Assembly: GCA_964016885.1 (NCBI GenBank)
Contig: OZ024751.1
Span: forward strand, 9,052,001 to 9,116,000
Source: Eledone cirrhosa
Taxonomy: Eukaryota
Direction of reading: 5' to 3'
DNA: 64,000 bases
Shown one piece after another: positions 1 through 64,000 of this stretch. Made by a program: the position numbers and the translations under genes. The number at the start of each line of letters is the position of its first letter. Positions within the stretch are counted from its first letter, which is position 1. The notes beneath the pieces were generated by a model, which made no database searches, was not told where the DNA came from, and worked only from the letters and a program-made list of their open reading frames with translations.

Positions 1-747
1 AGTCCAGTTATGGTACTCCGGGTAGTGGATGATAACAACGCTTGGCTAAGTTTGACTCAACAAGGCGTTTCCATAGTGATGCTGCGAGTACGCTGTAATT
101 CCTATGTTGTAAACACTTGGAGTAATAATAAATCGGGAAAGAAGAGTGAAACGGTTTGCTATACAAAAAAGGTTTTTAATCTCATTGCTGACAATTGTTT
201 CTCTGAACTGGTAGGTTTAGAGATCGCTATCCGCTTATTTTCACGTTACTCGATCGCCAATACAAAGTTATAACCAGTCAGTTCATCGGAGCTTGCGAGA
301 ATGAAGAGAATATACAGGCATGGAAAGAATATACAGGCTACTATATGCAGAAGTAATGGCATTCAGTTAGAACAATAACAACAATATCAACAATGCTACC
401 AATAAATTATTCGAAATAATCACATCAATCTAGGTGGGAAGTATAGTATGTCTAAGATTTTAGCGTGTAAAACTAGCTGACATGAGGCAGCTGTATAAAA
501 TTGACATGCATATAGTAGCCTGCATATAGTAGCCTGTATATTCTTTCCATGCCTGTATATTCTCTTCATTCTCGCAAGCTCCGATGAACTGCCTGGTTAT
601 AACTTTGAATTTTGCGATCGAGTAACGTGAAAATAAGCGGATAGCGATCTCTAGACCTACCAGTTCAGAGAAACAATTGTCACCAATGAAATTAAAAACC
701 TTTTTTGTATAGCAAACCGTGTCACTCTTCTTTCCTGATTTATTATA
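1..747. mobile_element. Fold-back PLE-type pseudo-LTR remnant: inverted arms ~123-350 / 520-747, long arm runs off the window's left edge
   Basis: 123-350 is the reverse complement of 520-747 with few mismatches; right arm ends in (TA)n; both arms carry an HHR-like motif. Confidence 0.7.
187..292 (-). ncRNA. Hammerhead-like motif (variant core CCGAUGA, extended stem II); mirror copy at 578-684 (+)
   Basis: GCT-CCGATGA-ACTGACTGGT...ACCAGTTCAGA-GAAAC-AATT-GTC-AGC: stem I GCT/AGC, palindromic stem III ACAATTGT, GUC triplet. Confidence 0.55.
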
Positions 748-792
748 TATATATATATATATATATATATATATATATATATATATATATAC

Positions 793-983
793 ATATAGAA
801 GAGCTTCTACAGGATTAGAACTGTTTCATTTGTGAGAAATCATCAGGAGATTCCTGATCATTTCTCACGAATGAACCAGTTCTAGTCCTGTAGAAGCTCT
901 TCTATATTAAAACATTTAGACACTGCTATGTATTGAGTACCTTACTTACTGTGGTTACATCCGATTCAACCCGGAATAACTTA
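793..983 (+). mobile_element. Fold-back pLTR fragment, same family as 12844-12948 and 38371-39195
   Basis: 793-848 inverted against 852-907, then a 3' tail (TATTGAGTACCTTACTTACTGTG...CCCGGAATAACTTA) into (TA)n; contains CTGATGA...GAAACAG on the minus arm. Confidence 0.75.
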
Positions 984-2876
984 TAATATATATGTATATA
1001 TATTTATATATATATATACGCCAGGATTAATACTACAGATTATGAAGCTCAAGGTGACATTTTAACGAAGAAAGAAATCTATGATGCAGCTTCAATTTGA
1101 GGTTTTATCTATCACACTTCATTTATGTATTTAATATATAAATAATAATTGTATATAAGTAATACATTCAATTTTGCGTCTTTCATTGAATTCAATACAG
1201 CTAATTATGTTTTGATGTATACGTCTTGTTATGAGATATTAATCAATCGCATGTAAGTATTAGATATTAGTTAGATAAATAAACAGGGTTAGATTTATTC
1301 CTAAATGCAAGAAATGTTATATCTCAGCATGTATTCACTTAAATGTTTCAGAGAATACTTGTACCTGGTGTGAACAAGTTTAAAATGCATATATTTTATA
1401 TTAAGTATGACATTTGGTGCAACTGAAATCTACTCTAGTTTATGATGCGGGTATGTAATGGGTCAGAAATTTATTTCATTTCCTATGGATATTTAATTTC
1501 CTCACCTGGTTTATAGCCTCTCGTTAGAACCAAGCATTCATGAACAGACCCCTCAAAGAAACCATACCACCTAGAAATATTGACAGCAAATATTTGATTT
1601 CGATCTCGATATTATTGTAACAGTCGTTCTATTGCCTTCTCAGAAGGTTTATTTCTTTTTTTTTACTTTTTGCAATCAAGAAGAACAAGAACAACAGTCC
1701 GAAATATTGAATAAACTTGCTCGTAACTATTCTTCTCAAGGTCAAACAAATATTACAATAACGTGAAATCCTCGTTTTCTATGGTTGTTGATTTATTTTG
1801 TTCCCGATATTTTTCTCAGATATTTTTGAAGCTGACACAGTACCTTATTTCCTCAGTTTGCCCTGAATAAAGATTACTCTGAATCTATGATTATTCTCTT
1901 CCTTGTTGATGATGAAAATCCTCATAAAAACAACTTCAATATATTTCATACAAGCGCAGAGATGTTTCAAAGATTTTAGAGAGCATACACACATAATATA
2001 TTCGTATTTTGAATGACAACGAATACGTTGATTGTATTATATGAAACTTTGCTACGATTAACAGAACAAAGACGAAAAACGTGCAGATATACAATTCCTA
2101 AGATTCTAACTCGTGTTGAACAAAATATTCAACCTTAGATGATGAAATATTGCTAAATGAGGAAAAAAGGCCAAACATTTGGTTGGTGAATGAGAGTATG
2201 GCGTGGGCACGAATAGGAAACCATTAGGCTACTTCGTAAAACTGATGAAACGTATATTTCGATTTTCTCTTTGAACGTCAGCAATGAATATCGATAAGCT
2301 AGTATTGTCCTTTAGAATTCAAAGTGTGGTATTCAGATCGCTGATATTGATTAGACATGTTGAGCAAAGATAAATATTCCTTCCTACGAGAAGGATAGAG
2401 GGAGAATTGAGAGCTCTATGCGATTATGCAACTTATATAGCTTATAACACTTTAGCAGGAGCATAAAAATTGCAAGGGGCGTAAAGCAGTTTCAGCTGCG
2501 ATTGGAAAGTGTTGGGTAAACCCAAATCACCGAGATAATCAGAAGCTTTGCATTGCTCTTACTTGTATAAGGAATTGTATAGGGATATTATCTGCAGAAA
2601 TGAATGGAATTGAACCTAACACTTTTCCTGTTTGAAAGGTTCTTAACAATGGCATAAACGTAGCTTATAAATACTCTTAGAAGCGAAACATGTTGAAATA
2701 AAATGTTCCGTGAAAACTATTAATACAATCCTGATTGTACTCTGTATTGGCTTAAAAGTGAGCATCACCCGAACTATATAATTTTGTAGAACGTCTATGA
2801 AAAAATTAGCAGCTAGATAGAAATACATAGAATAGAGCCAGGGAAAGACACACGCATACACTGGCACATAGAGCCT

Positions 2877-3139
2877 CGCACACACACACACACACACACA
2901 CACACACACACACACACACACACACACACAGAGGCACTGGCATTCATACAGTGAGACACACAAACATACACGTACACGGATTCACGTCCACACAAGCATA
3001 TAAACAAATATATGTGTATATATATATATATATATTTGAATATATATGTGTATATGTAAATATATTTATGTATATGCGTGTGTTTGTGTATAATATATAT
3101 ATATATATATATATATATATATATATATATATATATATA
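2877..3139. repeat. (CA)n and (TA)n microsatellites
   Basis: Direct reading. Confidence 0.95.
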
Positions 3140-62383: not shown

Positions 62384-62700
62384 GGGTGTATGTGTGGGTG
62401 TACGTGTGTGTGGGTATGTGTATATGTGTGTCTATATATGAGCATATATATATATGTCTATGTATGTGTGTGTGAGTATATACGTATAGCCACGTTTGAG
62501 TAGGTGTGTGTGTGGGGGGGGGGGAAGTGTGCATATATATATGTGTGTGTGTATGTGTATATATGTGGATGTGTTTGTGGGTGAAGGTGCATGCATATGC
62601 GGGCCTCTATATGTGTATACATGTATTTGTGCATACACGTTTATGTGCATCTCATAGGAATGTGTGCGGATAATTATATATGGACTATGTATGCTTTTTT

Positions 62701-62919
62701 TAATACAACAAGAATAATAGTAATAATTGTTTCTATTTTAGGCACAAGGCCAGCAATTACTCAGTGTATTACTGGTACTTTATTTTATCGACCCCGTAAG
62801 GATGACTTGGCCTTTCATCCTTACGGGGTCGATGAAATAAAGTACCATTAATACACTGAGAAATTGCTGGCCTTGTGCCTAAAGTAGAAACAATTATTAC
62901 TATTATTCTTGTTGTATTA
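62701..62919. repeat. Hairpin of two head-to-head SINE 3' halves
   Basis: 62701-62804 inverted against 62814-62919 with a ~9-nt loop. Confidence 0.85.
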
Positions 62920-63384
62920 TGTTATCACATATCCTCTATATATATCCGTATATATCCGTATATATCCGTACATGTATGTATGGGTCTGTGTACGTGTGTG
63001 TGTGTGTATGTGTGCGTGTATATATATTTATATGTATTATATATATATATATATGTATATATATATATATGTATCATATTGCATTTTATATTACATTGTA
63101 TATTTAATTTTTTATGTTACGGTAAGTTATCGTTGTCTTATTGCATCATGTATTTTTAACTGTTCACTTCCAGGTGTGTTTATATATGTATATGTGGTAG
63201 CACATGTGTGTGTAGGCAGATATGCATGCGTGCAGGTGTATGCATGTGGCAACACGTTTGCGTATGCATGTGTAATTGTATGTATATCGGCATATGCGTA
63301 GGTATTTGTATGTATGTGTGGATGTGCGTACGCATGTTAAGTTGTCTCTTTTCATTTGTGTGTATATATGTATATATATATATA

Positions 63385-63587
63385 TGGAGATCTCTCTGCA
63401 CTTGTCGTCACATGATACCATGGGCCCAGCACTATGTGTCAATAATTGTCACAAGTGTAGTGTTTGTACCAGAGTTTTCAAGTCGCTGGCTGGACTAAAA
63501 AGTCACACTCGTTCAGCGCATCGGTAGGGGTTCTCCTACATGGATATAAAGTAGTGGCCGTACTCGAAAACGAGTTGGCAGCCACCA
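63385..63587 (+). mobile_element. 3' third of the bipartite RTE derivative
   Basis: Reverse complement of 60617-60820. Confidence 0.85.
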
Positions 63588-64000
63588 CATATATATATAT
63601 ATATAAATATATATATATATATATATATATATATATATATATATATATATATATATATATATATATATATATATATATATATATATATATATATATATAT
63701 ATATGTGAGTGTGTATGTACGTATGTGTATTCGTATGTATGTGTGGGCATGTGCGAGTATAAACTTATATATGTATGTGTGTGTATGTATGTATATGTGT
63801 ATATGTGTGTGTATGAGTGTGTATATATACATATATATAGATATATTTAAATGTATAGAAGGTTGGGCGTATGTATATCTGCGCGCGTATGTATGTATAT
63901 ATATGTGTATGTTTGAGTAGGATATGCCTATCACAATTGATACAGAGCGGAAGTAAACAGCCGTCGGTAGGCTCGTGGCGGTATGTATAACAAGTGGGTG

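What the first reader, a model, noticed from the sequence alone, without database searches (positions are those of the whole stretch)
1..63895. One recurrent architecture across ~10 unrelated families: (TA)n - inverted short arm - long arm with 3' tail - (TA)n
Seen: fold-backs at 123-747, 793-983, 12844-12948, 19115-19336, 23157-23890, 29003-29402, 35998-36205, 38371-39195, 44118-45183, 54721-58438 and 59415-63895. Where both ends are visible, both 3' ends point outward into TA tracts, the 5' ends meet, and one arm keeps an extra 3' tail. Established: PLEs form inverted pseudo-LTRs and some clades favour microsatellites. Inference: a shared two-ended priming mechanism at breaks in (TA)n, used by many autonomous and non-coding HHR families, seeds about one hairpin per 6 kb.
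Basis: partly seen in the sequence, partly recalled or inferred. Interest (0 to 1): 0.75.

Follow-up and report, generated by a model that had tools for sequence, protein, structure and literature searches.

The report
Two-ended Penelope retroelement insertions
The mirror-image repeats are head-to-head ends of Penelope-like jumping genes sitting in TA repeats, a layout already published, but nearly every one pairs a tailed arm with a tail-less arm, which likely means one RNA is copied from both ends of a cut at two start points predicted to be marked by twin RNA hairpins.

Summary
The observation largely holds. Ten of 11 listed sites are real fold-backs; all 11 are head-to-head joins with 3' ends in (TA)n. 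They are nine families, not unrelated systems: six are 3' ends of Hydra-type Penelope-like elements (PLEs), one is Neptune-type, two showed no ORF. The layout (inverted 5'-truncated copy, one-sided tail, TA targets) is published. The title is wrong on one point: the tail sits on the shorter arm about half the time. What the genome adds is quantitative. In a young Hydra family, 47 of 48 close end-pairs on one chromosome stretch are tail plus no-tail, all pointing outward. Junctions are individually made and enriched for microhomology, both arms share one haplotype (54 of 57), and neither arm is consistently nested in the other, which argues against simple fold-back. A bulged hairpin lies 1-12 nt behind the tail-less end in seven families, and a second copy lies behind the tailed end in three. 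Best reading: programmed twin priming from both cut strands on one RNA (inferred, untested). This scan reported the same system before on other DNA of this genome.

The parts
1..508 (-). Family F123 tailed arm (tail at 1-124, continuing about 40 nt before the window into TA); 3' end of a Hydra-type PLE; hammerhead core at 289
   Evidence: (L304 pLTR-ORF-pLTR)
520..746 (+). F123 tail-less arm ending in (TA)n
793..848 (-). Family F793 tail-less arm
848..983 (+). F793 tailed arm (tail 908-983)
12844..12920 (-). F793 tail only; joined head-to-head to a short tail-less stub, arms do not overlap
12917..12948 (+). F793 tail-less stub (about 30 nt) into TA
   Evidence: read from sequence; family end position
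19115..19180 (-). Family F19k tail-less arm; 3' end of a Neptune-type PLE
19180..19336 (+). F19k tailed arm
23157..23238 (-). Family F23k tail-less arm; 3' end of a Hydra-type PLE
23234..23890 (+). F23k tailed arm (tail from 23773, with a deletion at 23851)
29004..29043 (-). Family F29k tail-less arm; 3' end of a Hydra-type PLE
   Evidence: (L306)
29041..29402 (+). F29k tailed arm
35998..36140 (-). Family F36k tailed arm; starts inside hammerhead loop II; no ORF found
36143..36205 (+). F36k tail-less arm
38371..38963 (-). F793 tail-less arm (the longer arm here); hammerhead core at 38424
38970..39195 (+). F793 tailed arm; hammerhead core at 39066
41833..43207 (+). Neptune-type PLE remnant (RT thumb, CX4CxxC linker, GIY-YIG) whose 3' end is family F19k
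44118..44661 (-). Family F44k tail-less arm, ending 38 nt short of the family's usual site; hammerhead core at 44164
44662..45183 (+). F44k tailed arm; 3' end of a Hydra-type PLE
54721..58168 (-). Young Hydra-clade PLE, tail-less long arm: 5'-truncated ORF (residues 130-737 of the full protein, 58166-56343), 3' UTR, hammerhead core at 54821
58167..58438 (+). Same family, short tailed arm (tail 58350-58438); hammerhead core at 58249
58846..62431 (-). Composite element, tailed arm with Hydra-type endonuclease remnant (62377-62099), microsatellite-rich 3' UTR and nested insertions
62415..64000 (+). Composite element, tail-less arm; ends 543 nt past the window in TA
58356..58375 (+). Bulged hairpin (RCTC-stem-TY-GAGY) 6 nt behind the tail-less end
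39132..39150 (+). Same hairpin, F793
12890..12908 (-). Same hairpin, F793 tail-only copy
45090..45111 (+). Same hairpin, F44k
23778..23836 (+). Same hairpin with long loop, F23k
36048..36071 (-). Same hairpin, F36k
55..123 (-). Same hairpin with long loop, F123
58892..58915 (-). Same hairpin motif, composite element (not the predicted minimum-energy fold here)

Best explanation
These are insertions of endonuclease-bearing Penelope-like retroelements, mostly Hydra clade, in (TA)n, each made of two head-to-head arms, one with and one without a 3' tail, likely produced when both cut DNA ends prime reverse transcription on one RNA at two fixed start sites predicted to be set by twin bulged hairpins. 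Shown: element identity, outward polarity, TA flanks, two fixed 3' ends per family, near-exclusive tail/no-tail pairing, individually made junctions with microhomology, same haplotype in both arms, hairpin positions. Inferred: the GIY-YIG domain cuts both strands of (TA)n; two RT units sit on the two hairpins and start 1-12 nt upstream of each; the two cDNAs grow towards each other and are joined at their 3' ends by microhomology or end joining; cDNAs that run off the RNA 5' end give the frequent solo inverted-pLTR hairpins; arms longer than one unit need a read-through tandem RNA, a ribozyme-made circle or a template jump (not resolved).
For: Pairing: 47 of 48 exact end-pairs within 20 kb on C1:0-190.5 Mb are tail plus no-tail and all 48 point outward (p=2e-14 against independent choice); the one tail-tail pair is two separate insertions. 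29 of 31 fully typed long insertions agree (3 loci shared with the C1 set). 12 of 12 close RT-hit pairs are head-to-head. Partners of tailed arms were tail-less in every resolved case in five other families: 9 of 30 loci had a partner for F44k, 16 of 30 for F793, 13 of 30 for F123, 10 of 30 for F23k, 21 of 30 for F36k. Junctions: mean microhomology 2.3 nt in 23 of 35 junctions without inserted bases, against 0.84 for random joints. Haplotypes match within an insertion in 54 of 57 cases, 18% between insertions. The tailed arm stops before the tail-less start site in 5 of 38 C1 loci and at window 12844, as twin priming on one RNA predicts. Hairpin: present 1-12 nt behind the tail-less end in 7 of 9 families by pattern (background about 0.003 per 18 nt), and 7-8 nt behind the tailed end in the 3 families with a tandem read-through copy, one with a mismatch. 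In print, a Poseidon PLE cuts and extends both strands and starts RT at two internal sites that bound the tail (PMC11167929).
Against: No biochemical or RNA data; all mechanism steps are inferred from DNA. In the published in vitro work the two strands showed no difference in start site, so it does not explain the exclusive pairing. One no-tail/no-tail (L098) and one tail/tail (L121) insertion exist. Arms often overlap over kilobases and some exceed one unit on both sides (L129, L130), which one linear RNA can give only with strand displacement or jumps. Matching haplotypes could also come from gene conversion or from one source locus dominating at a time. 12 of 35 junctions show inserted bases or could not be resolved. 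The hairpins are weak on their own (9 of 10 folds have z above -2), the search pattern was drawn from these same families, and the Neptune-type family has the same layout without this hairpin. The window's F44k tail-less arm ends 38 nt off the family site.
Confidence: 0.7

Rival explanations
1. Both DNA ends are primed, but on two separate RNA molecules from the same source locus, and an asymmetric protein complex or an ordered first/second-strand reaction forces one to use each start site.
For: Easily gives two long overlapping arms, including arms over one unit on both sides (L129, L130); compatible with pairing and shared haplotypes.
Against: Gives no reason for tailed arms that stop before the tail-less start site (5 of 38; window 12844-12948), and needs an extra rule to forbid tail/tail and no-tail/no-tail products.
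Confidence: 0.15
2. Self-priming fold-back: one cDNA (or an antisense template) folds at a palindrome and copies itself, as proposed in PMC3846280.
For: Short hairpins often have palindromic junctions; arms share haplotypes; model in print.
Against: A self-copy must be nested in its template and cannot add a tail. The tail-less arm reaches further 5' in 13 of 29 long insertions and the tailed arm in 15 of 29; some arms do not overlap at all; palindromes are also what joining two cDNA 3' ends at nearby positions would leave.
Confidence: 0.07
3. Short hairpins are pre-formed MITE-like or retrozyme-like units that transpose whole, inheriting their asymmetry from a master copy.
For: The 40 best hits to the whole 206-nt F36k hairpin are full-length, and most of the 30 read share one junction; two left-arm variants recur in a few copies.
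Against: That set was selected by the hairpin query. A tail-only query gave many different junctions, and the roughly 470-nt Hydra hairpins also differ at their junctions.
Confidence: 0.05
4. The fold-backs are assembly chimeras or palindromes made by break repair at (TA)n, unrelated to transposition.
For: One site has 183 of 183 identical arm bases; the window's own junction at 58167 was not bridged by the reads laid; no long reads were available.
Against: Arms differ by 2-12% at nine sites, ends are asymmetric and fixed per family at thousands of loci (1360 and 2169 exact end matches, controls 0), and raw Illumina reads of two other samples show a related tail-less end running into TA in over 7000 reads each.
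Confidence: 0.03

Closest known systems
Hydra-clade Penelope-like elements (Craig et al. 2021, PMC8557442; includes Hydra-1_Obim)
   Same: C-terminal GIY-YIG, RWK-like and DKT motifs, CxCX5C linker, CxxC and CxH, no CCHH, type I hammerhead near the 3' end, (TA)n targets, partial tandems.
   Different: Unit is 3993 nt against a usual <3 kb; tails are about 70-165 nt against the 30-40 bp quoted for PLEs; hammerheads differ by eye from the Hydra-1_oBim one in the supplement. The strict pairing and twin hairpin were not in the parts read.
General EN+ PLE insertion layout (PMC8557442 fig. 2 legend; PMC3846280)
   Same: Inverted 5'-truncated copy at the 5' end, head-to-head, tail often at one end only, palindromes at some junctions.
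   Different: Described qualitatively and explained there by endonuclease resolution or self-priming; here counted over many loci and better fitted by two primed cDNAs.
Poseidon_Ac in vitro (Frangieh et al. 2024, PMC11167929)
   Same: Both strands cut and extended, AT-rich target, two internal RT start sites bounding the tail, start near the pLTR-ORF junction, predicted dimer.
   Different: Different clade; no strand difference in start site was seen; initiation in an AC-rich stem-loop; inverted products not explained.
LINE-1 twin priming
   Same: Second DNA end primes internally, giving an inversion with junction microhomology.
   Different: In L1 the internal site is a chance annealing site and the parts do not overlap; here it is a fixed family site and arms usually overlap.
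Non-LTR retrozymes (bioRxiv 10.64898/2026.07.22.740005)
   Same: Hammerhead-bearing, pLTR-derived, likely moved by PLE proteins; may fit F793 and F36k.
   Different: Retrozymes are defined as tandem arrays; these copies are inverted pairs, and most families here have ORF-bearing parents.

Membership tests
EN+ Penelope-like elements | Single ORF with RT and GIY-YIG endonuclease | tested here: met
   737-aa ORF with YRDD and YVGST; Atlas neighbours at 0.95-0.99 carry GIY-YIG, RVT_1 and HTH_animal in part of their members. Pfam gave no hit for this protein.
EN+ Penelope-like elements | pLTRs from partial tandems, inverted 5'-truncated copy, optional tail | tested here: met
EN+ Penelope-like elements | Type I hammerhead in the pLTR | tested here: met
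   Found upstream of the tail-less end in 8 of 9 families (160 of 171 anchors in the young family); 0 of 400 shuffles; three families carry variant cores; none scored for the composite element. Cleavage not tested.
Hydra clade | RWK-type motif, DKT instead of DKG | tested here: met
   RWR at 37, DKT at 118 (definition)
Hydra clade | CxCX5C linker, CxxC and CxH, no CCHH in the endonuclease | tested here: met
   Motifs at 596, 694, 721; no CCHH pattern seen by eye around the GIY-YIG core
Hydra clade | Insertion into (TA)n | tested here: met
Hydra clade | Generally short (<3 kb) | tested here: inconclusive
   Unit is 3993 nt because of a long 3' UTR; the published figure is a tendency, not a rule
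Hydra clade | Groups with Hydra RTs in a phylogeny | not tested
   No reference Hydra sequences were loaded
Hydra clade (F44k, F123, F23k, F29k, composite) | Hydra-type ORF upstream on the same strand | tested here: met
   F44k 4 of 4, F23k 3 of 4, F123 1 of 5 long copies, F29k in L306; composite 62377-62099, E 4e-11
Neptune clade (F19k) | CX2-5CxxC linker before a C-terminal GIY-YIG | tested here: met
   CX4CxxC at 478 of the L095 copy, 86% identical to window 41968-42642; no tree made
Naiad clade | N-terminal GIY-YIG, no canonical hammerhead | tested here: not met
   Endonuclease is C-terminal and hammerheads are present
Non-LTR retrozymes (F793, F36k) | No ORF; tandem units each with an intact hammerhead | tested here: inconclusive
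   No same-strand ORF tied to the family in 5 and 2 long copies; no tandem array seen; F36k core is a variant and is cut off in most copies
TIR DNA transposons / MITEs | Fixed terminal inverted repeats with constant interior | tested here: not met
   Arms vary in length, ends are asymmetric, junctions differ

The most novel reading that the evidence does not exclude
Hydra-clade PLEs use programmed twin priming: two copies of one bulged RNA hairpin dock two RT-endonuclease units on a single RNA, each priming from one end of a double-strand cut in (TA)n at its own fixed site. This would explain the PLE tail, the head-to-head inversion and solo inverted pLTRs in one mechanism, and would let ORF-less families that keep the hairpins ride along.
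Probability: 0.45. Interest if true: 0.75.

Novelty: new member of a known kind. Interest (0 to 1): 0.5.

Why it matters
The layout is known, but how PLEs make tandem and inverted insertions is named as an open question in PMC8557442. This genome offers a young family with open frames, thousands of insertions, a near-strict pairing rule and candidate RNA signals, so the question becomes directly testable in vitro. PLE reverse transcriptases are the closest relatives of telomerase, so how they pick start sites is of wider interest. For annotation, such hairpins should be filed as PLE ends, not as MITEs, DNA transposons or microRNA precursors.

Tried and rejected
Rfam scan of the window: the 150 rows shown of 343 were microRNA or snoRNA models on microsatellites, all below their gathering scores; no hammerhead family among them. 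Pfam found nothing for the Hydra ORF; PDB sequence search found nothing. A DNA search with the AT-rich pLTR returned nothing, not even the window, so exact patterns were used. My first hammerhead scans were too strict. Sequencing runs: no RNA holder listed, so expression and the RNA 5' end are untested. Reads on 1-743 came from many copies and did not isolate this locus. On 57900-58438 the window's junction was not bridged, and the few strand-switch reads could be library chimeras. A second tail-less end for F29k at 29366 was dropped as a likely alignment overrun into TA-like sequence. Loci dropped from counts: L153 (unresolved) and L170 (two insertions) from the 40 C1 loci; L111, L123, L129, L130 (an end missing) from the 35 junctions when typing ends; L127 and L170 from the haplotype test; 8 of 41 stretches showed no junction (L103 probably a miss). 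Family searches used tail-containing queries and 1.5-kb flanks, so they test partner type, not how often insertions are inverted. Literature searches for the pairing rule, twin priming in PLEs or the hairpin found no paper stating them; older subscription papers on Penelope were not searchable, and unread supplements may bear on this.
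Full report
Setting. The window is G000:C11:9052001-9116000 of a 3.0-Gb animal assembly. It is 68% A+T with very many (TA)n tracts.

Check of the observation. Self-alignment confirms inverted arms at 10 of the 11 sites: 123-747 (226 bp, 96%), 793-983 (55, 93%), 19115-19336 (66, 95%), 23157-23890 (81, 94%), 29003-29402 (40, 93%), 35998-36205 (63, 95%), 38371-39195 (143, 88%), 44118-45183 (384, 98%), 54721-58438 (183, 100%) and 59415-63895 (75%, half microsatellite). 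12844-12948 has no hairpin; it is a tail joined head-to-head to a short tail-less stub of the 793 family. 19 of 20 ends lie within 30 nt of (TA)6+, against 5.4% of background positions. The sites belong to nine families. The tail is on the longer arm at eight sites and on the arm reaching less far at three.

What they are. The ORF at 58166-56343 is the truncated copy of a 737-aa protein with RWR, DKT, YRDD, a CxCX5C linker, a C-terminal GIY-YIG-type motif, CxxC and CxH. These match the published definition of the Hydra clade of Penelope-like elements (PMC8557442, section 11 read). The family is young: all 150 scored hits are 96-100% identical, many with full open frames. Long copies show that F44k (4 of 4), F23k (3 of 4), F123 (1 of 5) and F29k (L306) are 3' ends of other Hydra-type elements. 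The composite element has a Hydra-type endonuclease remnant, and F19k is the 3' end of a Neptune-type ORF at 41833-42645. F793 and F36k showed no ORF in 5 and 2 long copies. Type I hammerhead motifs lie upstream of the tail-less end in 8 of 9 families, and in 0 of 400 shuffles.

What is known. PMC8557442 (abstract, passages, section 11, supplement search and part 2 of 59) describes an inverted 5'-truncated copy, a 30-40-bp tail often at one end only, and (TA)n targets for Hydra and Naiad elements, lists octopus members, and calls the formation of these structures an open problem. PMC3846280 (passages and Discussion) notes that head-to-head is the usual arrangement and proposes self-priming. 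PMC11167929 (parts 1-2 of 4) shows in vitro that a Poseidon element cuts and extends both strands and starts at two internal sites that bound the tail. bioRxiv 10.64898/2026.07.22.740005 (part 1 of 5) derives retrozymes from pLTRs. PMC13282606 (passages) lists 31 recently active Penelope-like families in Octopus vulgaris. The architecture is therefore not new.

Genome-wide tests. In the young family the two 3' ends are fixed 89 nt apart. Exact patterns found 1360 tail-less and 2169 tailed ends running into TA, with 0 in reversed controls. Among the 65 and 100 listed ends on C1:0-190.5 Mb, 48 pairs lie within 20 kb; all point outward and 47 are tail plus no-tail (p=2e-14). The exception is two separate insertions. 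In 41 larger stretches, 31 insertions had both ends typed: 29 mixed, one of each other kind. Five more families gave only tail-less partners for tailed arms (9, 16, 13, 10 and 21 resolved partners in 30 loci each). Junctions differ from locus to locus; 23 of 35 without inserted bases average 2.3 nt of microhomology against 0.84 for random joints, and 12 have insertions or were unresolved. Both arms carry the same haplotype in 54 of 57 insertions, against 18% between insertions. The tail-less arm reaches further in 13 of 29 long insertions and the tailed arm in 15, and in 5 of 38 C1 loci the tailed arm stops before the tail-less start. In 15 of those 38, both arms stop at unit positions 3705-3735, just behind a TCACT motif like the initiator noted in PMC3846280; these are solo inverted pLTRs of about 470 nt.

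The hairpin. Two tails shared an 18-nt match. Earlier notes of this scan read this motif as a bulged hairpin present in pairs, and I tested that here. The pattern RCTC-stem-TY-GAGY starts 1-12 nt behind the tail-less end in 7 of 9 families; F29k has it only in degenerate form and the Neptune-type family lacks it. A second copy starts 7-8 nt behind the tailed end in the three families where a tandem copy shows the following sequence, one with a mismatch. Background is about 0.003 per 18 nt. The outer pair is A-U in some families and G-C in others. The outer stem appears in 8 of 10 predicted folds, but stability is unremarkable. The second hairpin lies beyond the tailed end, so both hairpins coexist only at the pLTR-ORF junction of an RNA, where the Poseidon element also initiates.

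Mechanism. The best fit is that both ends of a cut in (TA)n prime on one RNA at two hairpin-marked sites and the cDNAs are joined at their 3' ends (0.7). Simple fold-back cannot give non-nested or non-overlapping arms. Two RNAs with an imposed asymmetry remain possible (0.15). How arms exceed one unit (read-through RNA, circle or jump) is open. Nothing biochemical was tested. No long reads were available; Illumina reads of two other samples show a related tail-less end entering TA but do not bridge the window's junction.

Verdict. New members of a known kind, with a known layout. The pairing rule and twin hairpin were not found in my searches, which miss most subscription papers and unread supplements. 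The scan noted the same system earlier on other DNA of this genome. Interest 0.5.

Noticed in passing
window 40422-40849 and 23868-23941: Inverted pairs with 3' ends pointing inward across a TA tract: two separate insertions of one family (F29k, F23k) in the same tract, the opposite of the main layout.
   Followed up: partly
F123 (window 289, minus), F29k, F36k (L288, L291): Family-wide variant hammerhead cores (CCGAUGA, CAGAAGA, CUGAGAA) in otherwise well-paired folds; may be inactive or non-canonical ribozymes.
   Followed up: partly
L131-L147; window 58167: Both arms of the short Hydra hairpins stop just behind a TCACT motif, a candidate transcription start. F36k arms mostly stop inside hammerhead loop II, near a similar motif.
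   Followed up: partly
L148, L150, L151, L152: Four tailed arms stop within 5 nt of each other, about 45 nt behind the tail-less start site, possibly at the edge of a bound protein.
   Followed up: no
window 58200-58420 in runs X16, X17: Read depth over the pLTR is roughly 100-fold that over the ORF, in line with many solo pLTR ends; reduced-representation libraries, so only indicative.
   Followed up: no
   Followed up: no
window 28357-28791: A perfect 65-bp inverted repeat encloses a TA tract and an internally deleted F44k copy.
   Followed up: no
window 37138-37745, 60618-61230, 43790-44091, 20532-20925, 63381-63590: A non-coding repeat family of about 600 nt, mostly flanked by TA tracts, nested twice in the composite element.
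   Followed up: no
window 32642-33715, 29553-31545, 53040-53786: LINE-type reverse transcriptase remnants; the last has a weak zf-RVT match (E 1.5e-4, below cut-off).
   Followed up: no
L095, L127, L047: Several PLE insertions of different families pile up in one TA tract, so earlier insertions do not use up the target.
   Followed up: no
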